From: Leucoraja erinacea
Taxonomy: Eukaryota
Length of the DNA stretch: 64,000 nucleotides
Assembly: GCF_028641065.1 (NCBI RefSeq)
Contig: NC_073382.1
Coordinates: 11,408,001-11,472,000, forward strand
Reading direction: 5' to 3'
Under the pieces are notes generated by a model that was not told the origin of the DNA, searched no databases, and saw nothing but the letters and a program-made list of their open reading frames with translations. The position numbers and the translations under genes were made by a program. Numbering within the stretch: position 1 is the stretch's first letter; each line of letters begins with the position of its first letter. Below, one piece after another: positions 1,888 through 63,108 of this stretch.

Positions 1888-2195
1888 AACAAACAACTGC
1901 AGATGCTAGTTAATACACAAAAGGCCATAAAGTGCTGGCAGAACTCAGCAGGTCTGGCAACATCCCTGTAGAATACAGGCAGGTGACATTTTGGGTTGAG
2001 ACCATTCTTCTGACTGATTATAGGTGAAGGAAGCTGGTAAACACGAGAGGCAAGATTTGCGTAAATCATGTTCTCCCCTTTTCAAACGTTCTTTCCCCCC
2101 TCCCTACCATCAGTCTAAAGTAGGGTCTCGACCCAACGCACCACCTATCAATCTTCCCAAGGAATTCTGCCAGGCCTGATTCTGTGTTGAATGAC
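1888..2195. mobile_element. Inverted pair of Penelope pLTR fragments
   Basis: aactgcagatgct...aactcagcagg...ggtgacattttgggttgagacc (minus) followed by cagtctaaagtagggtctcgacccaa (plus). Confidence 0.6.
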
Positions 2196-2829
2196 TTCAT
2201 GCTTGTGTGCCAATTTGCCCGATTCATCCATCACATTGCCTGGATCTGTCTCATAGGTAGGAAGGATCCACCAAAGACCATGACAAAGTGTTACAGGAGC
2301 AGGTGGGAATGGTGCGAGGATTCAAACATCCGGACTTTCGTGAAGTCTCATAACATCACCTTAAATGAAGAAGCCTTGTGACTATGGCCTAACATCCTTC
2401 ATCATCTGATGAATTGGTGCAGATCCAAACTGATCATGATAATACTGGTGCAATAACTATTGTACAGTTCTTTTACTGACAGTACCGCTTGAATGCAGAT
2501 CCAAAGTAAAGGGAATCAAAAGTCACAAGGAAACCCTTTTTTGCACAGCATTCGGCTGGAATCTGGAATGCACTGCCTATAGATATGCTAATTATTGTCT
2601 GCTATCAATAACCAGGCTGATGGATGATGTTATTGGTAGTGCTACCACTGGAAGCACTCACCAATAACAATCTCACTACTGGAGAGTCATAGTCAGAGCA
2701 TCATCAGCATGGAATTAGATCCTTCGGCGCAACCTTTCTATGACGACCAAGATGCCTGTGTTTGCCCCATATGGCTCTAAACCTTTCCTATCCATAAACC
2801 TGTCCAAATCTCTGTTAAATGTTGAACCA

Positions 2830-3820
2830 CTTCATCCTTAGTTACAATTAGTACGGGAGCACTCAAGGCTGCGTGTTCAGCCCCCTGCTTTATACCCATG
2901 ACAGCGCAGCCGGACATAGTGCAAACTCCATCATCAAGTTTGCCGACGACACCACTGTGCTTGGATGGATCACAGATCGGTACGAGTCAGAGTATAGAAG
3001 TGGGATCGACCGACTGACCAAATGGTGCCAGCATGACAACCTGGCTCTCAACACCAGTAAGACCAAGGAACTGATTGTGAACTTTGGTAGGGGAAGGTGA
3101 GGACCCACATTCCTGTTCATATCAATGGGACGTTGGTGCAGAGGGTCAATAACTTCAAATTCCTGGGCGTGCATATTTCCGAAGATCTTTCCTGGACCCG
3201 GCACACTGATGCAATTATAAAGAAGGCACATCAGCGACTCTACTTCCTGTGAAGATTATGGAGATTCGCCATGTCGAAGAGGATTCTAAACTTCTACAGG
3301 TGCACGGTAGAGAGCATTCTGACTGGTTGCATCGTGGCCTGGTTCGGCAACTTGAACATCCAGGAGTGAAAAAGACTACAAAAAGTTGTGACCACTGTGC
3401 AGTCCATCACCGGCTTTGACCTCTCCACCGTCGTAGGGATCTATCGTAGTCGCTGCCTCAAAAAGGCAGCCAAAATCATCAAGGACCCACATCATCCTGG
3501 CCACACACTCATCTCACCATTGCCATCAGGAGGATGGTACAGGAGCCTGAAAACTGTAATGTCCAGGTTCAGGAACAGCTTCTTCCCTACAGCCATCAGG
3601 CTATTAAACACAACAAAAAAGCTCTGAGCTCTGAACTCTGAACTGCAAAAGACTATATTATTATTGCACTATATTTGTTATTTATTGAACTTTTTCTTTT
3701 TTTTCTCTTCCCCCATTATGTACTATGTTTACATATTCACATATTCTATAGTGCTGCAGCAAGTAAGAATTTCATTGTCCCATCCGGGACATATGACAAT
3801 AAAACACTCTTGACTCTTGA
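2830..3820 (+). mobile_element. Rex1/Babar-type LINE, 5'-truncated RT and C-terminus (pseudogenic)
   Basis: ORF pieces IIKFADDTTVLG, LALNTSKTKELIVNF, IIKDPHHPGH..LPSG..RFRNSFFPTAIRLLN; tail gacaataaaacactcttgactcttga. Confidence 0.85.
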
Positions 3821-9807: not shown

Positions 9808-9941
9808 NNNNNNNNNNNNNNNNNNNNNNNNNNNNNNNNNNNNNNNNNNNNNNNNNNNNNNNNNNNNNNNNNNNNNNNNNNNNNNNNNNNNNNNNNNNNN
9901 NNNNNNNNNNNNNNNNNNNNNNNNNNNNNNNNNNNNNNNNN
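9808..9941. other. Assembly gap
   Basis: Run of N. Confidence 1.
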
Positions 9942-10364: not shown

Positions 10365-11778
10365 TGTTTAAGAAGGAACTGCAGATGCTGGAAAATCGAA
10401 GGCACACAAAAATGCTGGAGAAACTCAGCGGGTGCAGCAGCATCTATGGAGCGAAGGAAATAGGCAAAGTTTTGGGCCGAAACCCTTCTTCAAACTGATG
10501 GGGGGTGGCGGGGTGAAGAAAGGAAAAAGGAGGAGCCCGAGGGCTGAGGGATGGGAGGGGACAGCGCGAGGGCTGAGGAAGGGGAGGAGACAGCAAGGGC
10601 TAACAAAATTGGGAAATTCAATGTTCATACCCGCAGGATGCAGACTCCCCAAGCGGAATATAAGGTGCTGTTCTTCCAATTTCCGGTGTTGCTCACTCTG
10701 GCCATGGAGGAGACCCAGGACAGAGAGGTCGGATGGGGAATGGGAGGGGGAGTTGAAGTGCTGAGCCACCGGGAGGTCAGGTAGGTTCTTGCGGACCGAG
10801 CGGAGATGTTCGGCGAAACGACCGCCCAGCCTCCGCTTAGTCTCACCGATATAGATCAGCTGACATCTAGAGCAGCGGATGCAGTAGATGAGGTTGGAGG
10901 AGATACAAGTGAACCTCTGTCACACCTGGAACGACTGCTTGGGTCCTTGAATGGAGGGGGAAGGTAAAGGGACAGGTGTTGCATCTCTTGCGGTTGCAAC
11001 GAAAAGTGCCCGGGGAGGGGGTGGTATGGGAGGGAAGGGAAGAATTGACAAGGGAGTTATGGAGGGAGCGGTCTTTGCGGAAGGCAGACATGGGGGGAGA
11101 TGGGAAGATGTGGCGAGTGGTGGGGTCACGTTGGAGGTGGCGGAAATGACGGAGGACTATTTGTTGTATGTGACGGCTGGTGGGGTGAAAGGTGAGGACT
11201 AGGGGGACTCTGCCCTTGTTGCGAGTGCGGGGATGGGGAGAGAGAGCAGTGTTGTGGGGTATGGAAGAGACCCTGGTGCGAGCCTCATCTATGGTGGAGG
11301 AGGGGAACCCCCGTTCCCTGAAGAATGAGGACATTTCAGATGCCCTGGTGTGGAATGTCTGATCCTGGGAGCAGATGCGGTGCAGACGGAGGAATTGGGA
11401 GTAGGGGATGGAGTCCTTACAGGAAGCAGGGTGGGAAGAAGTGCAGTCCAGATAGCCATGGGGGTCAGTGGGTTTATAGTGGATGTCGGTCAGAAATCTA
11501 TCACCTGCGATGGAGATAGTGAGGTCAAGGAATGGTAGGGAAGTGTCGGAAATAGTCCAGGTGTATTTGAGTGCCGGATGGAAGTTGGTGGTGAAGTGGA
11601 TGAAGCCAGTCATTTGTGTGTGGGTGCAGGACTGGCACCAAAGCAGTCGTCGATGTAACGGAGGTAGAGGTCGGGGATGGGGCCCTGGTACGTATTGAAC
11701 AAGGATTGTTCGACGTACCGACAAAGAGGCAGGCGTAGCTGGGGCCCATGCGTGTGCCCATAGCTACGCCTTGTATTT
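10365..11778 (-). mobile_element. Penelope-like element: RT C-terminus, GIY-YIG endonuclease and pLTR, frameshifted
   Basis: QIQGVAMGTRMGPSYACLF; RYIDD at 11646-11660; LPFLD; IYCIRCSRCQLIYIGETKR; RKLEEQHLIFRLGSLHPAGMN; 11 bp TSD ggaaaattact (10354-10364 / 11779-11789). Confidence 0.9.
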
Positions 11779-11844
11779 GGAAAATTACTGTTGGTTTAAG
11801 AGAGTGAGGATCTCCCCACAATTAAAACGATTCCCAAAGGACTG

Positions 11845-11962
11845 AAGTTTCGGGTCGGGACCCTTCCAAACGGTCTCAGGTCCCACCCCGAAACGTGGTT
11901 CATCCATTCCTTCCACATATGCTGCCTGACTCGCTAGAGTTACTCCAGCACTTTGTATTTTG
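11845..11962. mobile_element. Fold-back Penelope pLTR fragment
   Basis: tttcgggtcgggaccctt (minus) followed by cccgaaacg..gctgcctgactcgctagagttactccagcactttg (plus). Confidence 0.6.
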
Positions 11963-12269
11963 CCCAGTGTCAGCGCGATGAATGGATCTGCGATAGTGCG
12001 AGGAGAGACGGGGAGCAATGAGTTGCAAAGAAACGCAGCGAGGGAGCTCCGGTAGATTGGAGCACGGGGAATAGGAGATCGGCACGTTTAAAGTCAGCGC
12101 GCAAGGGTCAGATTGATTTAGAAGGGACGTGGGGAACAGGGTGGTGGGTGGGTGCGGGTCTCCAAGGGGCGCGGGTAACAATCTGTAACCCTGGGAAACG
12201 GGAACCGCGGCTAGATAAACCAATCGTCGGACATTGGTGGACGGATTCGTGGAGGTCAAAATTAACAGC

Positions 12270-12985
12270 ATAAGTGGACCCTAGATGAGTTTCGAAGGAG
12301 TACGGTAAACACAGCTAAAGGAACAAAGTTAGAAAAATATCACAGCCCCAGTGAGTAAATAGATGAGCAGAGCCCAGATGAGTTTTAATGAGCTCCGGCG
12401 TGTTGAGCCCTGACTGGGTCTGATTCAGTTGATTACACGAGTGAGTGTTTAAATGAACGGCGGTGGTTTGAAATAAGAGCGGGTGAATCAATTGCAGAGG
12501 AAAGGTTGACAGTGTCGGCTCAGAGAACAGCGGGGTCCCAGTGAGTGAAGACGGGATGTGGAGTCTGCCTGTAGAAGAAACATCTCAGGTAGCGGGAAAC
12601 TGCACGGGTGATCTACACATGAGCCCGGGAAACAGAGTTCAGTGTGAGACACGGGGTCACGGAACAAAAGGCCAGGCAAGGAAACAAACCCGGTGAGTTC
12701 ATACCGAGGGGGGGAAACCTGCCTCTGTGAGTTAAAATAACGCGGGAAGTTGACTCGGTTGAATTTGAAAGGGTTGCGGAAACTGCCCTATTCGGACCGC
12801 ATGCAGCCATAAGGGCCCGAGTGAGCTTCACGTCAAGTCTTAGAGATCGTAGCAGAAGCACGGGAACAGCCGCGAAAAGTTGCAAATCCGCGGGAAACTA
12901 GTCCAGGGGGGATTAGTGATTACACAGAAGTTCTGGAAACAGCCCTGGTGAGTTCAAAACGAGGAATTGCTAATGAGTTTAGAGA
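12270..12985 (+). repeat. Decayed ~33 bp tandem repeat (about CGGGAAACAGCCCNGGTGAGTTCA)
   Basis: cgggaaac-like motifs near 12593, 12626, 12660, 12743, 12777, 12861, 12891; ccc.gtgagtt-like motifs near 12278, 12346, 12373, 12536, 12689, 12815, 12943. Confidence 0.5.
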
Positions 12986-13112
12986 CACAGGTAACTGCAG
13001 ATACTGCTTTAGAAAACAAAATACAAATTGCTGGAGCAACCCAGCGGGTCGAGCAGCATCTCTGGAGAACCATAGATGGGCGACGTTTCGGGTCGAGACC
13101 ATTCTACAGACT
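12985..13112 (-). mobile_element. Penelope pLTR fragment
   Basis: aactgcagata..gctggagcaacccagcgggtcgagcagcatctctggag..gacgtttcgggtcgagacc. Confidence 0.7.
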
Positions 13113-13304
13113 AATTAAAGGTACGTTTAAAAGGGACGCGGATACTCAAGTGTTTTTAAGGCAGCGCAGAAAACAGAGACCGTGTGATTTCAAAACGAAG
13201 GGGAGAAACAGCCATAAGTCCATGCATCCGTCATTCCAGTCCCGACGAAAAGTAGAGACCTACCTCACTGATACTGCCCAACATCGACCACTATGAAGTC
13301 CTTT

Positions 13305-15064: not shown

Positions 15065-15200
15065 AGTGAAGACACAAGGAACTGCAGACGCTGGAATCTT
15101 GAGCGAAACTCAAATTACTGGAGTTACTCAGCGGGTCGGGCAGCGTCTGTGGAGGGAATGGGTAGGCTATGTTTAGGATGGGACCCTTCTTCAAACTCTA
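15065..15200 (-). mobile_element. Penelope pLTR fragment
   Basis: ggaactgcagacgctggaatc...actcagcgggtcgggcagcgtctgtggag...ggacccttcttcaaact. Confidence 0.7.
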
Positions 15201-15679
15201 TGAAGTGTTGGTTTCTGTTTGATGATTGTGAGTCCTTGATTCTTCCATAGAGCAGTGGGAGCAGAGTTTTTTGATGGTTTTATGGTAGAGATGTTGATAA
15301 ACATTTGGAACTAAGGTCACTGCTGGTAGGCGGGAATTGGGGGATGAAAGAACTCTGTCGGCCGTAATAGTATCGACCATCTCCAGCTGTTGATTCGAGC
15401 GTTACTCATCTCGGCGAATTTAAAAGAGCGCGGATTTTTTGTATGAAAAGGAGCATGGGGAGTAGAATGCCAACTAAAGTTAGCCTCAAATTTGCACAAG
15501 GTTCAGATGTGTTTGAAAGGGGTTCCGGTACAAGAGACCCAATGCTCATAAAATCAGCAAGGGGAACTTTGCTCAAGTCTGGTCAACGGGAAAGCGCACG
15601 ACCGAGTGAAACAGCACGGAAAACAGCTCACTGGTATCCGCTGGGCGGGGACAGCGCCCCGGGGTGTTCAAACCCAGAT

Positions 15680-16050
15680 GGATACAAATCCTGGAGTATT
15701 ACACAGCGGGTCAGGCAGCATCTCTGGGGGGAAAAGGAACAGGTGACGTGTCAGGTCATAGAAACATAGAACATAGGTGCAGGAGTAGGCCATTCGGCCC
15801 TTCGAGCCTGCACCGCCATTCAAATGATCATGGCTGATCATCCAACTCGGTATCCTGTACCTGCCTTCTCTCCATAACCCCTGACCCATTTAGCCATAAG
15901 GGCCACATCTAATTCCCTCTTAAATATAGCTAGAGTGGTCGAGACCTTTCTTCAGACTGACAGTCGGGGAGAGGGAAATTAGAGTTATAAAGAGGTACAA
16001 AGGACAAATGAATGAAAGGTATGCAAAGGGACAAATCAAAACCACCAACA
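15680..16050 (-). mobile_element. Penelope pLTR split by a short CR1 3' tail (about 15757-15930, minus)
   Basis: ggtgacgtgtcaGGTC | atagaaacatagaacatagg...cttaaatatagc.. | GGTCgagacctttcttcagactga. Confidence 0.75.
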
Positions 16051-17266: not shown

Positions 17267-17923
17267 CAGTAAACCCTCGAGATAACGGGCCGGGTGGGGG
17301 GGGGGGGTGTTGGTGTCCATTATTACCGAGTGTCCACTGTAACCGAGCAACTCATTATCGTTGTATAAGTAGTAGGGAGAAATAACTGCAGTTGCTGAAG
17401 AAAGACTGGATACTCGGCTTGTACTCGTTAGAATTTAGAAGATTGAGGGGAGATCTTACAGAAACTTACAAAATTCTTAAGGGGTTGGACAGGCTAGATG
17501 CAGGAAGATTGTTCCCGATGTTGGGGAAGTCCAGAACAAGGGGTCACAGTTTAAGGATAAGGGGGATATCTTTTAGGACCGAGATGAGGAAAACATTTTT
17601 CACACAGAGAGTGATGAATCTCTGGAATTCTCTGCCACAGAAGGTAGTTGAGACCAGTTCATTGGCTATATTTAAGAGGGAGTTAGATGTGGCCCTTGTG
17701 GCTAAAGGGATCAGGGGGTATGGAGAGAAGGCAGGTACAAGATACTGAGTTGGATGATCAGCCATGATCATATTGAATGGGCCGAATGGCCTACTCCTGC
17801 ACATATTTTCTATGTTCTATGTTAATACGCAAAAACTCTGGATTGGTGACGTTTCCGTTGAGACCTTTCTTCAGACTCTAGGTGTGGAACAGAGCTTGGG
17901 TCCGATAAAGTGAAGGTTTACTG
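17267..17923. mobile_element. Tc1/mariner (pogo/Tigger-like) MITE hosting nested pLTR and CR1 insertions
   Basis: TA|CAGTAAACCctcg ... gaaGGTTTACTG|TA terminal inverted repeats with TA TSD. Confidence 0.65.
17396..17822 (+). mobile_element. Young CR1 3' end
   Basis: LGLYSLEFRRLRGDL..SRTRGHSLRI..FFTQRVMNLWNSLP. Confidence 0.9.
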
Positions 17924-18005: not shown

Positions 18006-18114
18006 CTCGTGTAAGAAAGAACTGCAGATAAGGGCCTCAACCCAAATTGCTACTTATTCCTTTTCTCCAGAGATGCTGCCTGACCCGCTGGGTTACTCCA
18101 GCTTTTTGTGTCAA
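18006..18114. mobile_element. Mini Penelope pLTR unit with TSD
   Basis: TSD ttttcagaata at 17995-18005 and 18115-18125; near-duplicate at about 18365-18447. Confidence 0.7.
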
Positions 18115-20804
18115 TTTTCAGAATATTTTTTGGGTACTTAGGGTAAGTGTAATATATGTGATCAATTATATAGTTTTTTGAGTGAGTGTTGGATTGTTTG
18201 GGAATGTTTACTAGTGCACGCTTGTTATAATTCCTTTCTTTTTCTGAGAGCTTTGGGATAGCGGAGTTAAGGGATATGGGAGAATGCAGGAACTGGGTAC
18301 TGATTGTGGATGATCCGCCATGATCACGTTGAATGGCGGTGCTGGCTCGAAGGGCCGAATGGCCTACTCGTGTAGGAAAGAACTGCAGATAAGGGTCTCA
18401 ACCTAAATTGTCACATTCCTTTTCTCCAGAGATGCTGCCTGACCCATGGAACAGTGCAGCACAGGAACAATCCCTTCTGCCCATGGTGTCTGTAGCTAGC
18501 ATAATGTCAAATATCCCATCTACCTATACATGCTCCATACCCCTACATTCCCTTGACCTGGAACTTATTTTACCAGCGAAAGTAATGAGATGGGTGGGTT
18601 TAAAAGCAAATTCTGTATTGTGCTGTAATTCCCATACCTCTAATCTACCTCGCCTTGTACTTTGTATCAGTCATGGTTCTGTATCCTATTTATGTTGGGT
18701 GCATATTTTAAGATTATGAACAAAAACAGAATATTTATTTTGCTGAGGCCTGATCAATAGAAAATCTAGGCATGCATGTGCTTTACTTCTACCTTTTTCC
18801 CCCTGATGATATTTCACAGCATTGTGTCAAAATAGAAGACAATGTACAATCCACTGTAACTCTCATATTCCTGTGTACCAAATCTTGCACTATTAAGAGC
18901 TGGCATCCACACTCTCTTTATTGCACAATGCTGCCTAATTGGTTGTAATATTCTCAAACACTCATGTAAAAGCTAAATTCCATTACATCCATTGGTAGAA
19001 TAAGGTGCAGGTTCAAGATTTTGCATTTTTGTAGACAGAACAGTTAAACTGTCAGCAGAATCCTCTAATAAATACTGAAATAGCTGCTAGTCAGAATGCT
19101 GAGACTGGTACATCACTAATCTTTTCTTACCTTATACATAATTTATGATGAATTGCAAATCAAGCAAAATCAGATTGTATCACAGTAAATAGATTTTTTT
19201 GCTGAGCTATCTTAATCAAGCCATTTGCCAATATTTACTGATGAAAACTTCAATGTTAAACAACAAATTAGCAGAAGTACATTTTTTTGTGCAAGTATAA
19301 TGTTGTAAAGACATTAACTGCTCTAAACTAAATAATCTCTTAAGGGAACAAATATTCGTGAAGCCTCCCCTGGTGGCTGAGCTCATTAAGATCTCCTTGT
19401 GGATTGAGCTAGATACTCATTTGATCAGGACGCTACAGAGGGATTTGATTAAGGCTCCATTTGCACAGCGGGATCCCGGCTCTTAAAACCCCAGCTGACA
19501 GTTTGCTTGAATAGACGTGATTTAGGATTTGAACCACTGGACTTGTTAATGTCAGGGTTATTGAGGACACGTTGTCTCTCATGAGAATGCAGCATTTTTA
19601 CCTGCTCAGGAAGAATTTCCATCTTAGAATCACAGAGCTGAATAGTTTGTTACTTACACATAAATGTGGGAGAATGACGAGGATTTTCATCATGTACAGC
19701 ACCAAGTTTTCCTTTATCGCTGCATTAGGAAAATGGATAATTATTACTTTTATACATCATTCTTCTTGTGTTACCTGAAAAATGTGCACTCTGACTACCG
19801 CCTAAACTCAGGCTATTTTTAATGGTTTATAACATATTCAGTCAGTTTAATCCACACTAGGTTTGATGAACAGTCAGAGAGACAGTCAGAAAGCAATGCT
19901 TTCATTTATGTCAGAGTCAAGGATGTGGTACAAAAATTAATGGACTGTTTCCTTTAGCATTAAATGAACTCAAGTTCCACTCTATAGGACTACGGTGAGG
20001 GACAGGTGTAATGAAAAATCTTGCTTGCCTTTGGTACAAAGGATTTTGGTTGCGTTTATGCTACAGGTTAACAATAACTTCAGACCTGATTCCACCTTAC
20101 ACTGAATGAATCAAAATTGGGGAGTGGGGTGGGAGGGGGTTGGTAGGGGGCAGGAGGGGCAGGGCAGGTGTGGGATTTGGGATATGTGTGGTTGGGGTTT
20201 GAGGAGGGTTTCTTATCACTAATTCTGGCACCACTCTGTTCCTCAACACTAGGTTAATCTTGGAAATAGTACAAAGGTAACTTTGCCTTGACCCTAACGT
20301 CATGATTAAATTCAACCTTGCACAGTAGCTGACATGCAGTTGCAACTTCTACCATTAGCTGCTGGAGCAGGAGCATAGATGAACTGAGTTGAAAGAAAGA
20401 GAATTTGAATTAAAGCAAAAAAGCTAGGGGAATGGGATTGAGTGGATTTGATTACAAAGGATCAACACAAATTCATTGAAGTGAAGGGTCACCTATGATG
20501 TTTTTATTTTATTTCCAAGTTTTAAATATAACCTCAAATATTTGGGTTTGTAATTAGCAATAGAGCAGTTTTTCAGGTTAGTTTTTGAAAGTTCGAATAG
20601 TTTTATGGAACATAAGTAAGTTATCTTTAACAAAATCATTCCTGTGTAACATGGTTGAAGAACATTAAACTCTGTATCATATGTGACTTAGTAATTTAGG
20701 TTCCATGCCTAACTGTCTAAATCTTTATGTTGACTACATACCCAGAAAACAAGTAGTATTTCAACTGATAGCGATGCATCACTCCCAAATGAGCTCAATG
20801 CTTT

Positions 20805-20895
20805 CTGAAGAAGGGTCTCGACCCGAAACATCACCCATTCCTTCTCTCCATAGATGCTGCCTATCCCGCTGAGTCACTCCAGGTTTTTGTGTCTA
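20805..20895 (+). mobile_element. Mini Penelope pLTR insertion with hammerhead-like core
   Basis: CTGAAGAagggtctcgacccGAAAcatc; TSD tcaatgctttct at 20795-20806 and 20896-20907. Confidence 0.8.
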
Positions 20896-21692: not shown

Positions 21693-21779
21693 GGGTTTCG
21701 GCCCGAAACGTTGCCTTTTTCCTTCGCTCCATAGATGCTGCTGCACCTGCTGAGTTTCTCCAGCTTTTTTGTGTCCCTC
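21693..21779 (+). mobile_element. Mini Penelope pLTR insertion
   Basis: gggtttcggcccgaaacgttgcc..; TSD caaactgaaataca at 21679-21692 and 21780-21793. Confidence 0.8.
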
Positions 21780-24092: not shown

Positions 24093-25621
24093 ATGTTAAC
24101 AGTTTCTCTTTCCACATGCTCTGCCTGAGCTGTCGAGTGCTTCCATCATTTCTATTTTTATTTCGGATTTGTAGCATCTGCAGTATTTGTTTTAATGTTC
24201 CCTTCATTTCGTCCCGCCTCCCCTTGTCTTGTATTGATTTCAATGTTATCTCATGCTTTTCTAGCTGCCGGCAACCCAATATGATTTTTTTCTTGCATAT
24301 TTGACATCATGCCACCTGATTAGATTAGTTTGTGGACATGTACAACAGGGTGTAATTACATTCCTCCTTCGCGTGAAATCCACAGAGTAAACAATTTACG
24401 TAATGATAGATACAAAAATAAATATTAATAATTTCATAAATTCACGTGATATGAGCAGAATTAGGCCATTCGGCCCATCGAGTCTACTCCGCCATTCAAT
24501 CATGGATGGTCTTATCTTTCCCTCTCAACCGAATTTTCCTGCCTTTATTAAATCAAGAATCTAACTATCTCTGCCTTACAAATGATATATATAGCAGAAT
24601 GGTGCAAGCAAAGATTGTGGTACAATTTGAAAAAGTGCAAAAATTCCTAAAGTGCAAATCGTGCAATAACTAAAAGAGGTACAATTATAAGCAAGAGTTA
24701 GTGGCAATACTTCTGGGAATGCGGCGCTAAATAGGTGGTTGGTTCAGGAGTCCGATAGCAGTGGGGCGAAAGCTGTTGTTACATCTGGACACAAATTGCT
24801 GGAGTAACTCGGGCAGCATCTCTGGAGAGCATGGATAGCTGGCGTTTGGAGTCGGGACCCTTCTTTAGACAAATTGTGTGTGTGTCGGGGAGGTGAGGGT
24901 GGAAACCCGGGCTTTCAACCTGATAACCTCAGCTCCCACGGTTCAGTTAAATGACACAGTAAAAGGAAAGGTAGGCCTTGCACATTATGATCGGTATTCG
25001 CCCTCCACGTGAAATGTTCCTTGAATCGCTTTCGGTCAGGCAGGCTGAAAATGAGCAAGTCAGAAAACGCGTCGATTACCTTGGGGTGTGATTGGAGCCT
25101 CCATCGTATCACGTTGGCTCCTGGGCTGCCAATGTCACGGCGTGTTCAATCCGAAGGATTCACAGAGATCTTCTATTTACTATATTTTCATAATTTTAAA
25201 GCGTTTTTTACATTCCCTACAAATCCCTGCAGAATCAGCAAACCTGCCACCGGCTTCTTTTTCCTGAAGAGATAGAATAACGCGAAGGTAGCCGGAAATG
25301 GGGAAAGCAAATACCTCCTAGGGAATGGCGTTGGTGAGGTAACGAGACGAGGGAGTTGCTAAAAGTGCACTGGGCAAAAGTGGACGAAGACTGATAATTT
25401 CTGTTTTCATTTTAAAACGTTAACTGTGAATAATGGACACAGGTCATCACGAGAAACACATTGTGTCATTTCCCAAGGGATGGCCAAATCTGGGTGCTGG
25501 CACAAAAGATACAGAGCTTGGACAAATCTCTAAAAAATAGCGAGGCTGCGCGATTTTAAGATCAGGAAAGAAACATTGGCTGTTAACAAACTTTCCACCG
25601 CACTGATGGACTGTTAGAGTA

Positions 25622-27305: not shown

Positions 27306-27469
27306 GTAGAGATGCGGCAGTGGTTCACCTGCACCTCCTCCAACCTCATCCATTGCATCCGCTGCTCTAGGTGTCAGCTGCTCTACATCGGTGAGACCAA
27401 GCGTAGGCTTGGCGATCGCTCCGCTCAGCTCGCAATAACCAACCAGATCTCCCGGTGGCTCAGCACATC

Positions 27470-27505
<36 letters not shown>

Positions 27506-27885
27506 CCATCCCATTCCGACTCCACCCTTTCCGTCCTGGGCCTCGTCCATGGCCAGAGTGAGGCCCATCGTAAATTGGAGGAGCAGCACCTCATATTTCG
27601 CTTGGCTCGTTTACACCCCAACGGTATGAACATTGACTTCTCCAATTTCAGGTAGTCCCTGCTTTCTCATTGCTTCCCCTCCCCTTCCCAGCTCTCCCGA
27701 AGCCCACTGTCTTCGCCTCTTCCTTTCTTCTTCCCACCCCCCACCCCCATATCAGTCTGAAGAAGGGTCTTGACCCAAAACGTCACCTATTTCCTTCGCT
27801 CCGTAGATGCTGCCTCGTCCGCTGAGTTTCTCCAGCATTTTTGTCTACCTTCGATCTTCCAGCATCTGCAGTTCCTTCTTAAACA
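27306..27885 (+). mobile_element. 5'-truncated Penelope (GIY-YIG and pLTR)
   Basis: FTCTSSNLIHCIRCSRCQLLYIGETKRRLGDR; RKLEEQHLIFRL; direct repeat acagtaaatcactagtgt at 27288-27305 and 27883-27900. Confidence 0.9.
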
Positions 27886-28865
27886 GTAAATCACTAGTGT
27901 TGCTTTCTGATGATTTATTGCCAATTATGCAAACATATGAACTAGGACAACTTGGCCCTGCAAAACGACCCCTCCATTAATAAAATCATGGCTGTAACTA
28001 TAACCCTGCATTCGCATCTATCTGTCTACGGTTAAGAATAAACCGGGGTAAAAGTGTAGGGATAACAAAAGGGAAAGAAGGAGGCAGAGAGAGTGCAGAA
28101 TGCTGTTAAAGTGACATTAATAATATCAATCTAAATGTACTTTAGTAGGAACAATGTTCATGGCGACTGGCTAAAAGAGCGAGCATTATTGCCCAAGTGC
28201 ATCCTGTTCACGAAGGGCAAGACAAACATAATCTGGTCAATCATCACCCAATCTTTTATGAGTCATGGAACAATGCCTTTGATAGCACCACGGAATGGCA
28301 CGGACACATTAATAACCTCTTTCTTGATGCCCAGGTTGGGTTTTGCCAGTCCAGAACTGATTGCAATGTTGGTCCTTTACTTGAGTCAAAAAGATAAATT
28401 CCAGAGGTAAGCTAAATGTGAGGCCCTTAACATTAAGGCAGCATTTGACTAAATGTAACATCAAGGGTAACACTGCAATCATTGGGCTTCAGGCAAAAAC
28501 ATTCCAGTGTTGGAGCTGTACTTCCCATAGTCCCAGGTCATTACTGTAGGAGTTCTTCAAGGCAGAGGTAAGGACCCAATTACCTCCAATTATATCATTG
28601 CCTTCCGAAATAAAATTAGAAGTGGCGTGTATCGGTGAATGCACAATGTTCATTCAAGATAGAACCTAACAACTAGTCTGGAGAAGGGTCAAAATAGCCT
28701 GCCCATTTTCCCCAGTTGCTGCCTTGTACCGCCGAGTTCGTCCAAGCGTTTATCTTTGCTCAAATATCTAGTAACTGCAGTCTCTTGTGTAACTATCTCT
28801 TTACCTTCATGACCTTTACACTATTGGTCATGCCTCTGCCATCAACCTCCTGGACGGTGGGGGGT

Positions 28866-29039: not shown

Positions 29040-30295
29040 AAACAGAACATCTTTTACTTCGCTCCAAATATCTAGTTTGTGTCAGAAGATTGGATAATTG
29101 CAAAGGTTGTACCCTTTGTTTAAAAACGTTAACCATGGACAAACCTGGATACCATAGAGAGGCTAGTGAGCCTAACTTGGCAGTGATGTAGCTTTTAGAG
29201 AGATAATGGGAATGAGGAATAGGCAATTGTAGGAGCGTGAATAAAGAATGGAAAGCTAGCTGGGATCGATTGAAGTCAATTTGTGTGTGACTAACCCAAC
29301 TAAGGTTTTAACGAATGCAATATTGAGATGGTTGAGAACTATGTGTTTATATATATATATATTAAAGTATCTGACATTGCCGAGTACAAAATGTTGGATA
29401 CCCAAACGGAAGCCATTGGACTATGATGCTCAGGAGGAGAATTGGTTGTGGAAATGGCTTTGTCTCAGAAAGCAGGACGTTGCGATAAATAGCAAAACAT
29501 AAAATGCAGAAGTAACTCAGCGGGTTGGAGCAGCATCTGTGGGGGAAATGGCTAGGTGACGTTTTGGGTCTTCACATATGCAGCCTAGCCCGCTGAGTTA
29601 CTCCAGCACTTTGTTTTTTTTGCTCAATATTCCAGCACCTACAGTCCCCTGTGTCTCCATTTGAGATAAATAGTTGTTCTTCGAACTGGAAGCCAGGGTG
29701 TGCTGTTCCCCTGAAACTGGCGCTTGGGTTATAATCTATTCCACTTGAAAGGATGCAAGACATACGCATTTAAAATTTGCAGATATCGCAAATCCTGGAA
29801 CTGTGGTAAATATCAAGAAAACGATTGCAGGCAGCGTGTATATGGGTAGGCAGGTGGAATGAGCAGGGATTGAGATTCGACATACATCACTCTATAGTGA
29901 TACAATATCAACCAAAAACAAAACGAGACAATAAATGACAAATTATGCAATTCCAAAATGGGTGCAAGACAGGGACCCGGGCTTGTCAGTGCACCAGCTT
30001 TGAGATAGTAGAATGAGGATGTTTTAAAGTAAGCATCGTCAATTTATGACTCTGATGATTCTATTTTCCCCCCTCAGAATGGCTAGTCTTTGGAAATCTT
30101 GACCCATGGAAGGGCGGATGAAGCAAATTTTGAACAAGGGGGATGAGGAAGATATGTAGAGAAATAATACGATAAAGTTTACAGAGTAGAAGGGCAAGTG
30201 GAACTTTCAATCCTATCATCCAAGATTTTATTAAGAGGCAGAGAACCCGTGGGGCAAATAGCCTACTCCTGTTTTGCTCTTATACCACCTTGGCC
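29040..30295 (+). mobile_element. Very old CR1 remnants with an inserted fold-back pLTR (about 29500-29660)
   Basis: aaaatttgcagat, ggtaaatatcaag; pLTR arms gtaactcagcggg / cccgctgagttac. Confidence 0.45.
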
Positions 30296-33045: not shown

Positions 33046-34119
33046 ACTATTTGGATCAAGTGCTGACTATTTTCTGAAAGGCAGCACCATTCACTTTGGT
33101 GTATATTTAGTACCTTTGCAGATTTGATGCATTGAAAGCCTTTGCAAAACAGTGATTAGTTAACTACAGGTCTGGTAGAAAAGTCCATCATAGAATCAGT
33201 TGTCATAACAGTAGAGGGTGTTGCACAGAATCTAATAAAAATGAAATTATTACAGTAGTTACAAAAAAGTAGCATTCCTTTTCACTGGGTAACGAGTTAA
33301 AACACCGAATATACAAGAGAATTAGCTGAAAATAGCAACCTCAAAAACGTGCAATGCGCTCTTGGGTCTGTTTCTGAGTTTGTGAAGCACATTCTTGAGA
33401 AAGTCTTGGCCGAAGTGGGGACACGGGAGCCAGCAGCTATTTGAATCTGGAGCTAGATAATATGATCAATTTTATTACCTTTTTTACGAGCGCCCTCAAA
33501 TTACCCACCATCACCCTCCCCCATCCACCAGCTGGTTCCAGGTATCCCCTGTTTCAACCCTTCCTCTCTCCCCTTTACACTGGCTACCATTCTCTACGCT
33601 CTCAATCCTGATGCAAGGACTTGACCCGAAACATGGACCATGCCTTTACCTCCTCAGATTCTGCTTGACTAGTTCCTTCAGCAGTTGCTCTTTGCTGGGC
33701 CATTGTGGGTCAGAAAAAACTGGGGTTTGTTTAAGGGCAGATTATGTGTGTCGATGGCCCGGGTGGTGCATGCTGAAAACTGCAGTGCATGTCCGGTGTC
33801 TGAGGACTGTGTTGTCTGTTGAGTGGTGGAGGTGGTGTGTGTGTGTGGTGTGGATTGAATGGCAGCATGTACTGTATGTGCTGTATGCCGTGTGCTGAGT
33901 GCCAACATACATGTGATGTGTGCCGTGTGTTGAATGTCGAGGTGTTTTGAGGGCTGGAGTGTGTTGAGGGAAGTGCTGGTAGTAGATGTCTGATCTGAAC
34001 TACTGCCTTCAATTGTATTTATTTATGCCTACAATACTCTGTTGTGCTGAAGCAAAGCAAGAATTTCATTGTCCTATCTGGGACACATGACAATAAACTC
34101 TCTTGAATCTTGAATCTTC

Positions 34120-36919: not shown

Positions 36920-38040
36920 GAAAAGCAAGGTAGCAAGGTAATGCCAACCTCCCGTTGGCTCTGACACCCATCATCATGAAATGATTTAAGAGACAGGAGG
37001 TAGATAGAGGTGGTAACATAATGGCAAAACAAAATGTTCTTCCCCAAATGCTAGGAAAATTGAGGAGCAGGGTGGCGCGCACGGCCCAGTCTACATCAAC
37101 AGTGCAAAAGTGGAGGTGGTGGAGAGTTTCGCGTTCCTTGCTGTATGTATAACTAACAAAGTGTACTGGTCCAATCACATTGACACCACTGCTGAGAAAG
37201 CACAGGAACGCCCATACTTCATCAGAAGACCAAGGAAATTATGCATATCGCTAATGCTTCATACCACTTTCTATAGATCACAGAAAGCACCTAACCGGAT
37301 GCACCTTGGTTCGGCAACTACCCAAGAAATTGCAGAGAGCTGTGGATATACCTTGGTACATCAGGCAAACCAGCCTCCCACCCTCGCCCCTCCCACCTAT
37401 CCCCCTTCTCTTCCCGCACTATTTTTTCATTGGGTGCACACCACGCTGCTTCGGGAAAGCAGCCAACGTAATCAAGAACCACTCACTCTCTGGTCACTCC
37501 CTCTCGTCGGGAAGAAGATACAGTCGTTTCAAAGCACATACCCACCAGATTCAATGACAGCTCCTTCCTCGCTGTTGGTAATTTCTTGAACGGAACTCGC
37601 GTTAACTAAAGTGTAGCAAGGAAGCGTGGATGCTGGTTTACATCGAAGATAGACACAAATGCTGGCGTAACTCAAGGGGTTACTCTGGAGAATCGTCACC
37701 CATTCCTTTTCTCCAGAGATGCTGCCTGTCCCGCTGAGTTACACCAGCATTTTATTTCTATCTTTTCTCCAGAGATGCGGCCTGACCCGCATTTTGTGTC
37801 TATCTCCCAAATCCCCCCCAATCTGCTTCATTGGGACCCCTTACCCTTAACAATACAAAAGGACAGTTGTTTCCTGGAACGTTAGCGCTATATTGCACTG
37901 TTTCATTGCTCTTTTTTGCACCGCGAGTTGTGTTCATGACTGGTTTGATTTAATCATGTATGGATGATTTGTCTGGATCGCGCCCAAAACATGTTTTCAC
38001 TGTATCTGGGTACACGTGAGAATAATAAACCAATACCAAG
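36920..38040 (+). mobile_element. Old Rex1-type LINE with an inserted fold-back pLTR (about 37610-37805)
   Basis: EVVESFAFL, WSNHIDTTAEKAQ, GKAANVIKNHS..SGRRY. Confidence 0.65.
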
Positions 38041-39047: not shown

Positions 39048-40229
39048 ATTCGCCCCCACTATACGGAAAACTGCCCATAGTGTAATAAATCGACTGGTCA
39101 ATGCCCATACAATAAGCCAGATATCTCATCAGCCAACAACTTTTAAAGTTGCCGGCGACAGACTGGCCGGAGATTCCACACTCCGCGGATCTCTCTGCAC
39201 TTAATTTACAGTCGGTGACCATCCAAGGAACGATAGCACATTCACTAATACTAAAGCGGTCCGACCAATCAGTGCCTACTTGGTCATAAGTGTCTACAGA
39301 ATAACCTCCGGATCAGCAGTAAGTAAAAATCGCCTGATCACAGACAACAGATCGAAAAATGCTAAAGACTACACAAAGCACAAATGCTGGGAGACATCAG
39401 GATTGTCGACCAGTCGCATTTGTCCCTCATATATAGTTCCAGCATGATTTCACAACGAAAACACACGATATAAAGCACCAACTACTGTTCGGCTGTGTGT
39501 GAAGAAGGTGTGTGTCTCGATCCATTCCTTCTCTCCAGAGATGCTGACTGTCGCGCTGAGTTACTCCAGCATTTTGTGTCCACTCTCATGATGAAATCAG
39601 GGTCGGTTGAATGTGCTGGGTCAGAGATTCCCTGATCTGAGCAAGCAACGGATTGGTTCCCCTGGATTGCAAAATGAGTTTAAAATAGTTTTCGGAAGAA
39701 TGTGGGTTTAGAGGAGAGGCGTCATGAATATGAAAACGTAAAATACGGATTATGGTGGTTTCTGGCCTGCGTTTATAGCTACTTGAGTCATTGAAAATGT
39801 AACCGGATCAATTGCGGGCTGGTCTCACACGGAGGGGTACCGAACCCTCTTCTACATAAATCACATTGGTGGGTTCCATCACTGGTCTTCGAAATATTTT
39901 CTCCTTTGATCTGAGCCACAAACATGCTTAATTTAATGCATTAAATGTGAGCTAACTAAACATAATGCCACTGAGATTTGCAAAGACTGACTTTTTTTTT
40001 TTACCACTTCTACCTCTTCGGATTTGCTCCGAACTGTTTATGCAGCTCATCTATCCGTCTCTACAGAACAACTCCAGGCCTCGCCGGGACCCGTGGATGT
40101 CAGTCACCCAGGTCTCTGACACACAATGGCCTTGATCTTCTCAGGCGACCAAAGGTCGGCACTCTGAAGGCGATAGCGATTTTCGTCAGCAATGTTTGCC
40201 TTTGATGAGGCGCAGAACATAGAATGCAG

Positions 40230-47240: not shown

Positions 47241-47425
47241 NNNNNNNNNNNNNNNNNNNNNNNNNNNNNNNNNNNNNNNNNNNNNNNNNNNNNNNNNNNN
47301 NNNNNNNNNNNNNNNNNNNNNNNNNNNNNNNNNNNNNNNNNNNNNNNNNNNNNNNNNNNNNNNNNNNNNNNNNNNNNNNNNNNNNNNNNNNNNNNNNNNN
47401 NNNNNNNNNNNNNNNNNNNNNNNNN
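47241..47425. other. Assembly gap
   Basis: Run of N. Confidence 1.
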
Positions 47426-51167: not shown

Positions 51168-51298
51168 GATACAACATGTTGGAGTAACTCAGCGGGTCAG
51201 GTATCGTCTGTGGGGAGAAGGAACCTTCATCTTACTCCAGCATTGTGTGTGTGTCTATCGTCGGTTTAAATCAGCATCTGCAGTTCCTTCCTGTACAG
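51168..51298. mobile_element. Fold-back mini pLTR insertion
   Basis: tggagtaactcagcggg ... ttactccagc; TSD tattcttaagta at 51156-51167 and 51299-51310. Confidence 0.8.
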
Positions 51299-58330: not shown

Positions 58331-58332
58331 AA

Positions 58333-58949: not shown

Positions 58950-59452
58950 TGGAGATACAAGGAACTGCAGATTCTGGAATCTTAAGTAAACCACAAAATG
59001 CAGCAATAAATCTGCAGGTCAATCAGCATTTGGGGAGGCAAAGTCTAGGTGACATTTAGGTTCGGGATCCTTCTTCAAAATGTTTTATGCCTGGTGTTAA
59101 TTTTGGGGGGAATGGAAGGAGGAAGGTGCGAGTTAATGTCCAATCTGGGAACGTGATGGAAGCAAGACTATATGGAGGTCCTACAGTATTAGAAGCATAG
59201 ACACTTTAAAAAAGGAAAAATAGAACAAAAAATTACTGGAGTAACCCAGCGGATCTGGCAGTATCTCTGGAGAAGATGGATAGGCGACGTTGCGGGTCGG
59301 GACCCTGCTTCAGACGGAAACGTCACCTGTCCTAGAAAGATCCCTACCTGAAACCCATCCATGTTCTCCAGAGATGCTGCCTGACCTGCTGAGTTCCTTC
59401 AGCATTTTGTGCTTTTTTATTTTGTTAACCAGAATCTGTAGTCTTTTTCCCA
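58950..59452. mobile_element. Penelope pLTR fragments (58950-59080 minus; 59230-59452 fold-back)
   Basis: ggaactgcagattctgg; gacgttgcgggtcgggaccctgcttcagac; tctccagagatgctgcctgacctgctgagtt. Confidence 0.7.
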
Positions 59453-60409: not shown

Positions 60410-60585
60410 GAACATGCTGCAAACGCAGAGCAGGTCAGGCAGCATCCATGGCAGGAAAACTAGAAGGTACACAAAAATGCTGGAAAAACTCAGCGGGCGC
60501 AGCAGCATCTATGGTGCGAAGAAGATAGGCAACGTTTCGGGCCGAAACCCTTCTTCAGACTGATAAGGGGTGGGGGGAGGCGGGA
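60410..60585 (-). mobile_element. Penelope pLTR fragments
   Basis: gaaggtacacaaaaatgctgg..actcagcgggcgcagcagcatctatgg. Confidence 0.8.
60528..60563 (-). ncRNA. Putative minimal type I hammerhead ribozyme motif (best-preserved copy)
   Basis: Minus strand tcagt-CTGAAGA-a-gggtttcggccc-GAAAC-GTT-gcc, i.e. CUGANGA, stem II, GAAA and NUH. Confidence 0.55.
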
Positions 60586-60799: not shown

Positions 60800-61620
60800 C
60801 GGGCGGAGAATTTGCAGATGGAGTTTAATTCGGACAAATGTGAAGTGATGTCAACTGGAAGGTCAAATGCAAGAGAAAAGCATACAGTCAATGGCAGGAC
60901 CTTTAAGGGCACAGACTGGTCTTGTTATAGTTCCTTGGAAGTAACAGCATAAGTGGATAGAGTGACAAAGAAGGTGTACAGCATGTCAGTTCTGATCGCC
61001 ACACTATAGGAGACTTTGGGTGGGTCCAGAGGAGATTCTCCAGAGTATTCTCCAAAATGTTGCTCTGATTTGGAGAATATTTGCTATAAAATTAGTTTGG
61101 ACAAACTTGGATTATCTCTTCTGGAGCAACAGAGACTGAAGGGCAACCTGATAGAAATATATGGATGCTCGTGAGGAAATGTCCAAATGTTTACGCCCCT
61201 GTCCCACTTAGGAAACCTGAACGGAAACCTCTGGAGACTTTGCGCCCTACCCAAGGTTTCCGTGAGGTTCCCGGAGGTTGCATGTGGTTGCCGGAGGTTG
61301 CAGGTAGTGGAAGCAGGTAGGGAGACTGACAAAAACCTCCGGGAACCTCCGGGAACCGCACAGAAACCTTTGGTGGGGCGCAAAGTCTCCAGAGGTTTCC
61401 GTTCAGGTTTTCCAAGTGGGACAGGGGCATTAAGGAGATTTGTGAGACAAGATTTGAGAGGCTGCCAGGGGTAGAGGTAGATGCAAATACAATAGCAATT
61501 TGTAACAGTTTTTTGACAGATGCGTGAGCAGGGAATGAACTATGGGATTAGTTTATATTGGCCTCGTGTTTGGAGCAGTCCTGGTGAGTCATGGGGCTGT
61601 TCCTCTGCTTTTTTATGTTT
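60800..61620 (+). mobile_element. Old CR1 remnant hosting a MITE
   Basis: gcagatggagtttaattcggacaaatgtgaagtg; ctggagcaacagagactgaagggcaacctgataga. Confidence 0.65.
61194..61429. mobile_element. PIF/Harbinger-type (Tourist-like) MITE
   Basis: About 85 bp near-perfect terminal inverted repeats gcccctgtcccactt.. / ..aagtgggacaggggc; TTA TSD at 61191-61193 and 61430-61432. Confidence 0.85.
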
Positions 61621-62173
61621 GATGATTGATATACAATTTGGAAGTTGAGGAATAGCATCTGGAGGCTCGGATGCTCCATTCAACATCTTTGAGATCAGTT
61701 GGTGTTAATTGGAAACCTATCTTACAATAATTATTGTCAGAGTCATCATGACATTTTAAGCATTAGTCACTATGTATCAGGAATAATATCTTGAGAGTAT
61801 AGTTGGGTTGCTTATTGCATTAGCATGTGGAAACCTGGATTATTCATACTGAGACACGATTTCAAATGTCACCACCCAAATAATTAAATAATTTTGGAAC
61901 AAATATAATAATCTGGGGGGACTTTAACAAAGCTAACCTCAGCAGGGACTTTCCAAAGTACAGACTTCAGGTTTCCTGCCCCACCAGAGAGGAGAGAACA
62001 TTTGACCACTGTTACATGTCAATCAAGACGCATATTGCTCAGTTCCCCGGGCGGATCTGGGTCTCTCTGATCATTGTCTACTTCACCTTATTCCGACCTA
62101 CAGGCAGAAACTAAAATTATTAGCCCGAACAACGAAACGGTGGCAGAAACTGAAAATATCCTGTTTTGACTGC

Positions 62174-63108
62174 CTGAAGAAGCGGTTCTGGAGAAAAACG
62201 GGTTGCATCTATGTAGCGAAGGAAATTCCTTCGCTTCATAGAAGAAGGGTTGCTGCCCACCCGCTGATTTCCTTCGCTCCATAGATGCTGCTGCACCCGC
62301 TGAATTTCTCCAGCATTTTTGTGTACCTTCGATTTTCCAGCATCTGCAGTTCATAGAAACATAGAAACATAGAAATTAGGTGCAGGAGTAGGCCATTCGG
62401 CCCTTCGAGCCTGCACTGCCATTCAATATGATCATGGCTGATCATCCAACTCAGTATTCCGTACCTGCCTTCTCTCCATACCCTCTGATCCCCTTAGCCA
62501 CAAGGGCCACATCTAACTCCCTCTTAAATATAGCCAATGAACTGGCCTCAAACTACCCTCTGTGGCAGAGAGTTCCAGAGATTCACCATTCTCTGTGTGA
62601 AAAAAGTTCTTCCCATCTCGGTTTTAAAGGATTTCCCCCTTATCCTTAAGCTGTGACCCCTTGTCCTGGACTTCCCTAACATTGGGAACAATCTTCCTGC
62701 TTCTAGCCTGTCCAACCCCTTAAGAATTTTGTAAGTTTCTATAAGATCCCCTCTCAATCTCCTAAATTCTAGAGAGTATAAACCAAGTCTATCCAGTCTT
62801 TCTTCATAAGACAGACCTGACATCCCAGGAATCAGTCTGGTGAACCGTCTCTGCACTCCCTCTATGGCAATAATGTCCCTCCTCAGATTTGGAGACCAAA
62901 ACTGTACGCAATACTCCAGGTGTGGTCTCACCAAGACCCTGTACAACTGCAGTAGAACCTCCCTGCTCCTATACTCAAATCCTTTTGCAATGAAAGCTAA
63001 CATAACATTCGCTTTCTTTACTGCCTGCTACACCTGCATGCCTACCTTCAATGATTGGTGTACCATGACACCCAGGTCTCGCTGCATCTCCCCCTTTCCT
63101 TCTTAAAC
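62174..63108. mobile_element. pLTR insertion split by a CR1 3' end (about 62353-63095, minus)
   Basis: agcatctgcagttc | atagaaacatag... | ttccttcttaaaca; CR1 ORF LYRVLVRPHLEYCVQFWSP. Confidence 0.85.

What the first reader, a model, noticed from the sequence alone, without database searches (positions are those of the whole stretch)
1888..63108. About 20 dispersed hammerhead-bearing Penelope mini-elements that appear to insert on their own (retrozyme-like)
Seen: a motif with consensus tcagtCTGAAGAagggtctcgacccGAAACGTCacc recurs on both strands. It is best preserved at 20805 and 60528-60563, and partial or mutated near 1985, 2110, 10465, 11845, 13080, 15170, 15745/15940, 17845, 18030, 21693, 24840, 27752, 28677, 29555, 33608, 59048 and 59285. 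It is the terminal repeat of the RT/GIY-YIG elements at 10365 and 27306. Several 87-131 bp solo copies have their own TSDs: 18006-18114 (11 bp), 20805-20895 (12 bp), 21693-21779 (14 bp) and 51168-51298 (12 bp). Established: Penelope-like element pLTRs carry minimal type I hammerheads (CUGANGA...GAAA, tiny palindromic stem III) proposed to act as dimers. Here stem III is the self-complementary ACGT with no loop, and stem I pairing is weak. Inference: a very abundant class of tiny ribozyme-derived RNAs mobilised in trans by Penelope RT. Catalytic activity is unproven, and the copies could instead be extreme 5' truncations of full-length elements.
Basis: partly seen in the sequence, partly recalled or inferred. 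Interest (0 to 1): 0.7.

Follow-up and report, generated by a model that had tools for sequence, protein, structure and literature searches.

The report
Penelope leader run-off stubs, not retrozymes
These 90-130-base repeats are separately inserted copies of the front end of a known kind of jumping gene (a Penelope-like element); most start at one fixed spot just ahead of a tiny ribozyme-like motif, likely because copying runs off the start of the parent RNA, so they are probably dead-end by-products that record how this poorly understood class copies itself, not a self-spreading ribozyme family.

Summary
The motif is real: 35 profile hits in the window, 595 in 1.46 Mb of this genome, 0 in reversed DNA; all four cited duplications are confirmed. 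It is the terminal repeat (pLTR) of a Neptune/Nematis-type Penelope-like element with a minimal hammerhead core. The copies are not random truncations: 43 of 70 young copies stop within 16 nt upstream of the core (3.4 expected), mostly at -2/-3, not at the predicted cut site. They end at two fixed points (about +93, +129). The element's start codon lies at +163, so the stub is the RNA's 5' leader. Head-to-head pairs combine one long and one short end in 61 of 72 cases. Solos form no lineage of their own. Best reading: internally primed cDNA running off the RNA start. Retrozyme-like spread is unsupported; rare 200-270-nt tandems may be retrozyme precursors. A transcription start, a cap and cleavage were not shown. 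This scan noted the same fixed start before in other genomes.

The parts
20807..20895 (+). Clean solo, short (no-tail) form, 11 of 11 hammerhead core letters, 12-bp TSD
18006..18114 (+). Composite stub: short inverted tail piece, then forward no-tail copy with decayed core (3 of 11); 11-bp TSD
21693..21779 (+). Solo no-tail copy that starts at +10 (first half of the core missing); 14-bp TSD
51168..51298 (.). Head-to-head pair of a no-tail arm (-) and a tail arm (+), no hammerhead core; 12-bp TSD
10365..11778 (-). 5'-truncated Penelope-like copy: RT thumb, CX4CX2C linker, GIY-YIG, pLTR with tail; 11-bp TSD at 10354 and 11779
27306..27882 (+). 5'-truncated copy: endonuclease end, pLTR with tail; 18-bp exact TSD (21 with one mismatch)
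29490..29655 (.). Head-to-head pair, no-tail (-) plus tail (+); 13-bp TSD with one mismatch
37612..37764 (.). Head-to-head pair, tail (-) plus no-tail (+), core mostly missing; no TSD found
59225..59447 (.). Head-to-head pair, no-tail (-) plus tail (+); no TSD found
62244..62349 (+). Stub with rearranged core and shortened tail; 9-bp TSD
60454..60565 (-). No-tail copy with 11 of 11 core letters and about 28 nt of upstream element sequence
1886..2020 (-). Old tail-form copy (9 of 11 core); opposite-strand no-tail copy at 2107-2215
12983..13116 (-). Old tail-form solo (10 of 11 core), no TSD found
15071..15201 (-). Old tail-form solo (9 of 11 core), no TSD found
58953..59084 (-). Old tail-form solo (9 of 11 core), no TSD found
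24779..24876 (-). Old no-tail copy (8 of 11 core)
28670..28792 (+). Old tail-form copy with stem II deletion (8 of 11 core)
33605..33687 (+). Diverged no-tail copy (10 of 11 core)
39497..39600 (+). Copy with the second half of the core deleted
17839..17880 (-). Core-only fragment (11 of 11)
11842..11964 (.). Decayed head-to-head junction (short - arm, no-tail + arm)
15672..15960 (-). Split decayed copy (core piece at 15937-15960, rest at 15672-15758)

Best explanation
The repeats are TSD-flanked copies of the 5' leader of a Neptune/Nematis-type Penelope-like element, most likely made when the element's reverse transcriptase starts inside the leader at one of two fixed sites and runs off the RNA's 5' end, probably a transcription start 2-3 nt ahead of the hammerhead core. 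Shown here: fixed 5' ends at about -2/-3 (C of CUGA = 0), two fixed 3' ends (about +93 and +129), 10-15-bp TSDs, the ORF start codon at +163/164, one long plus one short end in head-to-head pairs, and short tandems that restart at the same 5' point. Inferred: the endonuclease nicks both strands about 10-15 nt apart; RT primes from a nick at an internal site (shown in vitro only for the anole element PAc, PMC11167929); run-off gives a 90-100 or 125-135-nt stub; priming from both nicks, one at each site, gives the head-to-head pair; a jump after run-off gives a tandem, or perhaps the long body-bearing copy. The hammerhead would be a passenger in these stubs, which are likely dead ends.
For: 43 of 70 young copies end within 16 nt upstream of the core; 3.4 expected from the 1-per-400-nt rate further upstream, p about 1e-38. 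TSD-defined starts: 20 in -6..+5 (control 0.4), 3 in +6..+19, 0 in +20..+79, among 424 copies. Templated reach in 27 TSD-bearing young solos peaks at -2 (10) and -3 (6). Genome-wide only 10,137 of 23,816 exact cores carry the four upstream element letters. 3' ends: 15 of 27 at +89..+97, 10 of 27 at +124..+131. The sequence after the tail encodes the ORF N-terminus (residues 14-93 of P0010, E 3e-9; profile E 9e-16), ATG at +163/164. Six insertions in five loci hold leader plus ORF start, then return to about -1..-3 at different donor points (period 202-268 in the five that were measured). Head-to-head pairs: 61 of 72 typed pairs are tail plus no-tail, against 50% expected, p 8e-10. A solo's nearest neighbour is a body copy in 50 of 91 cases, p 0.75. 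The same three boundaries show as loose ends in reads or contigs of other organisms. The start lies in TCAGT, which fits the initiator consensus (recalled).
Against: No RNA evidence for a start site: two lays of a poly(A) RNA-seq run of another organism show no pile-up of read starts, and the ORF-start part is about 3 to 1 first-mate-plus, which in most stranded libraries means antisense (strandedness unknown). A cap-derived G is not shown: G is over-represented before the boundary in one family, but about 13 of 30 and 11 of 30 inspected cases are inverted-arm junctions (by eye), the young family shows 1,020 G against 1,769 C/T, and single extra letters were G in 3 and C in 2 of 27. No complete leader-ORF-pLTR copy was seen; the leader-to-ORF link rests on overlapping loci (L151, L271, L342), and a profile search of all loci then held missed it. 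54 of 161 simple copies start further inside, at +4..+64. The 70-copy set needs an intact core, so it cannot show starts downstream of it, and it comes from one end of contig C1.
Confidence: 0.68

Rival explanations
1. RT stall or processing boundary: the RNA continues upstream (tandem read-through or the 3' pLTR), but RT drops off at the 5' edge of the hammerhead because of bound protein, the near-palindrome around -5..+3, or the pyrimidine tract and CAG that look like a splice acceptor.
For: Body copies carry a pyrimidine tract and CAG just upstream. In D. virilis an intron ends at helix I (PMC4209133, part 2). No start pile-up in RNA reads. Cap-G not shown.
Against: No shared exon-like sequence upstream of solos, and TSDs abut the boundary, so neither element nor host exons are spliced on. 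27 of 70 copies pass the point and then decay slowly. Tandems that carry the ORF start also begin at this point.
Confidence: 0.15
2. Self-propagating mini-element (SINE-like or retrozyme-like, the first reader's view): solos are transcribed from an internal promoter or processed by the hammerhead and are re-inserted in trans as a family of their own.
For: Fixed length, own TSDs and very high copy number. D. virilis Penelope has an internal promoter (PMC2377424, passages). L302 is a TSD-flanked tandem with two identical junctions, which a circular or tandem template could give. The nearest-neighbour test uses only 91 letters of copies about 11% diverged and has limited power.
Against: No solo-only lineage; all four subfamilies and most young variants occur in both solos and body copies. 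No ends at the cut site. Tandem periods differ from case to case. The forced hammerhead fold costs 5-9 kcal/mol in four real monomers. For PAc the RNA needs sequence downstream of the RT start sites, which solos would lack, and ribozyme cleavage is not needed for insertion (PMC11167929, parts 1-2).
Confidence: 0.1
3. Ordinary random 5' truncation of copies primed at the 3' pLTR, or solo pLTRs left by recombination.
For: 27 of 70 young copies do show a broad spread of 5' ends, -67 to -1059. Solo pLTRs without TSD were ascribed to recombination in a rotifer (PMC3846280, passages).
Against: The pile-up at -16..0 is about 13 times the expectation. Solos lack the upstream part of the terminal repeat and carry fresh TSDs at the boundary.
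Confidence: 0.04

Closest known systems
EN+ Penelope-like elements, Neptune/Nematis type (PMC8557442, passages; PMC3846280, passages)
   Same: RT plus C-terminal GIY-YIG, CX2-5CxxC linker, heavy 5' truncation, inverted 5' copies, 30-40-bp tail often at one end only, TSDs of about 10 bp
   Different: Here most copies stop at one fixed 5' point and the stub maps to the leader upstream of the ATG; the one-tail-per-pair rule is counted (61 of 72). Neptune was not told from Nematis (no tree built).
[quoted passage not shown]
   Same: CUGANGA and GAAA core, extra base between 9 and 10.1, G10.1-C11.1 pair, palindromic 15.2-16.2, mostly single dispersed motifs, some in opposite-strand pairs, ascribed there to truncated PLEs
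   Different: Helix I only 2 bp and helix II 4 bp with a tetraloop (their S. mansoni motif: 4-5 and 7-8 bp); the fixed start at the helix I edge is not described in the parts read.
PAc, Poseidon element of the green anole (Frangieh et al. 2024, PMC11167929, parts 1-2 of 4)
   Same: Two internal RT start sites that define the tail, extension on both target strands, hammerhead not needed for insertion, no RNA ends at the cut site
   Different: PAc is Poseidon clade and its start sites lie inside the ORF; here both lie 35-70 nt upstream of the ATG. Run-off stubs are not discussed in the parts read; their supplementary figure S2 was not seen and may bear on this.
Animal non-LTR retrozymes (PMC7229834, passages; bioRxiv 10.64898/2026.07.22.740005, parts 1-3 of 5)
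   Same: Type I hammerhead, pLTR-related sequence, dependence on PLE enzymes proposed, large TSDs; the rare tandems here have units of about 200-270 nt
   Different: Retrozymes are tandem arrays with two or more hammerheads that give circular RNA; these are dispersed monomers or inverted pairs with a minimal core and no family-specific unit.

Membership tests
EN+ PLE, Neptune/Nematis type | RT with C-terminal GIY-YIG endonuclease in one ORF | tested here: met
   L321: RVT_1 above cut-off, GIY-YIG E 7e-4 just below cut-off; window GIY-YIG above cut-off
EN+ PLE, Neptune/Nematis type | CX2-5CxxC motif between RT and EN | tested here: met
   CX4CX2C in P0001 and L321; definition from PMC8557442
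EN+ PLE, Neptune/Nematis type | pLTR with optional 30-40-bp tail and inverted 5' copies | tested here: met
EN+ PLE, Neptune/Nematis type | Clade placement by RT phylogeny | not tested
Minimal type I hammerhead of PLEs | Core letters, extra base before stem II, G10.1-C11.1, palindromic 15.2-16.2 | tested here: met
   all four subfamily majorities; per-column table
Minimal type I hammerhead of PLEs | Core better kept than flanks across subfamilies | tested here: inconclusive
   0 of 11 core against 24 of 82 other positions vary, Fisher p 0.06; long flank blocks are equally invariant
Minimal type I hammerhead of PLEs | Helix I of 4-5 bp | tested here: not met
   2 bp only, as in the D. virilis variant (PMC4209133)
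Minimal type I hammerhead of PLEs | Self-cleavage as dimer or with protein help | not testable with these tools
   monomer fold disfavoured by 5-9 kcal/mol; the true dimer fold was not modelled
Non-LTR retrozyme | Tandem units with two or more hammerheads | tested here: not met
   33 same-strand neighbours within 400 nt among 452 hits, mostly with unrelated DNA between them; 2 of the 33 are leader tandems (by eye). Met only by rare loci such as L302
Non-LTR retrozyme | Canonical type I hammerhead | tested here: not met
   no Rfam hammerhead hit at E up to 1; 2-bp helix I
Non-LTR retrozyme | Expressed as linear and circular monomer RNA | not testable with these tools
   no small-RNA or circRNA run was on offer
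SINE-like non-autonomous family | Fixed ends and own TSDs | tested here: met
SINE-like non-autonomous family | Own lineage distinct from the autonomous partner | tested here: not met
   nearest neighbours 50 body and 41 solo for 91 solos, p 0.75; limited power

The most novel reading that the evidence does not exclude
Penelope-like elements copy themselves by a retrovirus-like strong-stop step: a protein dimer primes at both target nicks from two fixed sites in the 5' leader, the cDNA runs to the RNA start and must jump to the 3' pLTR to copy the body. Failed jumps leave the stubs and head-to-head pairs; mis-jumps into the ORF start make 200-270-nt hammerhead tandems, the cradle of animal non-LTR retrozymes.
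Probability: 0.3. Interest if true: 0.75.

Novelty: new variant of a known kind. Interest (0 to 1): 0.45.

Why it matters
How Penelope-like elements build their pseudo-LTRs, tails and inverted ends is still open (PMC8557442 calls it undefined; PMC11167929 gives only a first in vitro outline). Roughly 880,000 copies in this genome (extrapolated from 4.0 hits per 10 kb) record the products. They give exact, testable coordinates: an RNA 5' end at -2/-3, RT starts at +93 and +129, one of each per two-armed insertion, and an ATG at +163. They also suggest a concrete route from pLTR to retrozyme-like tandems, which a 2026 preprint proposed from phylogeny alone. The element class and its minimal hammerhead are known, and no new ribozyme family is shown. 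My searches of the held library found no paper on fixed-start leader stubs; Repbase, Dfam, subscription papers and supplements were not seen.

Tried and rejected
Rfam scan: no hammerhead. Cap-G test: looked positive in counts but was largely explained by inverted-arm junctions and mutated body copies, weak in the young family; left as not shown. Splice-acceptor model: no shared upstream exon. Cut-site-defined ends: none. Run search: no RNA holder listed. Read lays: no start or end pile-up. First peptide-profile test of the post-tail frame was no better than reversed controls, and the N-terminal profile found nothing in the loci then held; the match came only with L342. No complete element among 15 long loci; the 1,052-aa frame in L320 partly runs through an unrelated repeat. 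The blast-based 'body' class wrongly took in some solos at -15..-29, so the statistics rest. My first guess of a Poseidon-clade element was dropped after the linker motif was seen. Lunse et al. (PMC5785218) is not held; seen only as a citation in PMC6765202. No structure prediction, complex job or RT tree was run.
Full report
Setting. The window is G000:C6:11408001-11472000 of a 2.19-Gb genome. The best named protein relatives of the element come from sharks, so the host is probably a cartilaginous fish (inference). Positions below count from the C of the CUGA core (0).

Observation. The motif matches the window 5 times with up to 3 mismatches and never in 100 shuffles. A profile built from the copies gives 35 hits in the window and 595 in 1,464,000 nt (window plus 140 stretches of 10 kb), none in reversed DNA. 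The 130 dispersed stretches, all from contigs C1-C10, average 4.0 hits per 10 kb, roughly 880,000 hits genome-wide by extrapolation. Two exact cores alone occur 14,654 and 23,816 times. The four cited TSDs are exact. But only 3 of 35 window hits and 98 of 452 hits of 40 bits or more keep all 11 core letters; 51168-51298 has no core; 18006 and 21693 lack most or half of it. Rfam reports no hammerhead.

Parent element. The 10365-11778 copy (11-bp TSD) holds an RT-thumb frame and a GIY-YIG frame. An 819-aa frame elsewhere (L321) has RVT_1 and a weak GIY-YIG hit and a CX4CX2C linker, the mark of Neptune and Nematis elements (PMC8557442). I checked this motif after earlier scan notes named Neptune; I had assumed Poseidon.

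Hammerhead. Four subfamily majorities all keep CUGAAGA, the extra base, a 4-bp stem II with G10.1-C11.1 and a YYCG loop, GAAA, the ACGU palindrome and U16.1; 0 of 11 core positions and 24 of 82 others vary (p 0.06). Stem I is 2 bp. Changes in stems are one-sided (U-A to U-G), none compensatory on both sides. This fits the minimal hammerheads of PMC4209133 (parts 1-2 read). In real copies a competing fold wins: stem II pair probability is 0.07 or less in 3 of 3, and forcing the hammerhead costs 5.4-9.0 kcal/mol in four monomers. Cleavage could not be tested.

5' ends are fixed, and not at the cut site. Among 424 copies (40 bits or more, intact 3' end, enough flank), exact TSDs of 9 bp or more put the first inserted base at -6..+5 in 20 cases (control 0.4), +6..+19 in 3 and +20..+79 in none. 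Of 161 simple copies, 107 align from -14..+1, 54 from +4..+64, and 3 from +28..+30. In 70 young copies with an exact core (the first matches on C1; three listed places that were partners of fetched ones were skipped; two of the 70 are arms of one insertion), 43 end at -16..0 and 27 are spread from -67 to -1059; the upstream rate predicts 3.4. This set cannot show starts inside the core. In 27 of 38 young solos with a TSD the match to the element reaches -2 in 10, -3 in 6 and at most -7. Genome-wide, 17,517 of 23,816 exact cores keep two upstream letters, 13,490 three and 10,137 four.

3' ends and pairs. 3' ends fall at +89..+97 (15 of 27) or +124..+131 (10 of 27), the known optional tail, which in the anole element PAc marks two internal RT start sites (PMC11167929, parts 1-2 read). 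About a third of hits lie in head-to-head pairs (140 of 424). Of 86 pairs, 72 could be typed: 61 join a tail and a no-tail arm, 9 two no-tail, 2 two tail; unpaired copies are 132 tail and 134 no-tail (p 8e-10). PMC8557442 states that the tail is often at one end only. The count suggests priming from both nicks, one start site each (inference).

The stub is the 5' leader. A conserved sequence follows the tail in a few loci (13 hits in 11 loci). It opens with an ATG at +163/164 and a peptide shared by several subfamilies. Its continuation in L342 matches residues 14-93 of the 904-aa relative P0010 (E 3e-9) and an N-terminal profile (E 9e-16); on C8 this part and an RT match lie 1.9 kb apart on one strand. 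Against: two earlier tests failed, L342 lacks the leader, and no complete element was seen in 15 long loci. So the fixed 5' end lies about 165 nt upstream of the start codon, in a TCAGT that fits the initiator consensus (recalled).

Jumps. Six insertions (L151, L292, L111, L068 and two in L302) hold leader plus ORF start and then restart at about -1..-3; the five measured periods are 202-268 nt. L302 is one TSD-flanked insert with an inverted tail arm and two identical junctions, unit 209 nt. Similar end-to-start joints show in contigs of other organisms. Different donor points argue for separate template jumps after run-off, not for one family. Such tandems meet the working definition of non-LTR retrozymes in bioRxiv 10.64898/2026.07.22.740005 (parts 1-3 read), which proposes a pLTR origin.

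No solo lineage. All four subfamilies hold solos, pairs and body copies; a solo's nearest neighbour is a body copy in 50 of 91 cases (p 0.75). Power is limited (91 letters, about 11% divergence).

Not shown. A cap: G is enriched at the first non-element base in one family (2,026 G against 2,001 C/T at -3; 1,261 G against 2,092 A/T at -4), but many inspected cases are inverted-arm junctions; the young family gives 1,020 against 1,769 (slightly different pattern lengths) and 3 single G against 2 single C. This does not confirm the cap claim of note e1-10281146 in this genome. A transcription start: RNA-seq of another organism shows the same boundaries as loose ends of embedded copies but no start pile-up.

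Verdict. Known element class and known ribozyme motif; the retrozyme-like reading is not supported. The stubs are best read as run-off cDNAs of the element's 5' leader (0.68), with an RT stall (0.15) and self-propagation (0.10) as rivals. The bold reading, a strong-stop and strand-transfer cycle that also seeds retrozyme tandems, is not excluded (0.3). Papers seen as passages only: PMC8557442, PMC3846280, PMC2377424, PMC7229834, PMC6765202. No supplements were read; figure S2 of PMC11167929 may bear on novelty. The scan's earlier notes report the same fixed start in other genomes; they are not independent support.

Noticed in passing
window 45167-46186 (-): Single open frame with HMG box and SOXp domain, a SoxB-type transcription factor gene; profile hits are absent between 39600 and 51159.
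   Followed up: partly
L302:1296-1801: TSD-flanked tandem of 209-nt leader units with two identical junctions and an inverted tail arm; best candidate for a retrozyme-like precursor.
   Followed up: partly
L195:1345-1500 and L036:9010-9090: ORF start joined directly to the 3' UTR and pLTR: internally deleted or mis-jumped derivatives.
   Followed up: no
L090:205, L144:8802, L116:1952, L129:245, L320:197: An unrelated repeat of about 130 nt or more with a sharp common start; type not determined.
   Followed up: no
L292:1429-1491: RNA-seq reads over the ORF-start part are about 3 to 1 strand-biased, possibly antisense, whereas the pLTR part is unbiased.
   Followed up: no
pLTR +49..+110: A conserved hairpin-forming motif downstream of the hammerhead has two alternative partners, one before each 3' end; it may position the two RT starts.
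   Followed up: no
window 19500-19573 and 61591-61661: Weak Rfam matches (snoZ182, mir-3931) far below the gathering scores, probably chance.
   Followed up: no
window 9808-9941 and 47241-47425: Two runs of N; neither overlaps a listed copy.
   Followed up: no
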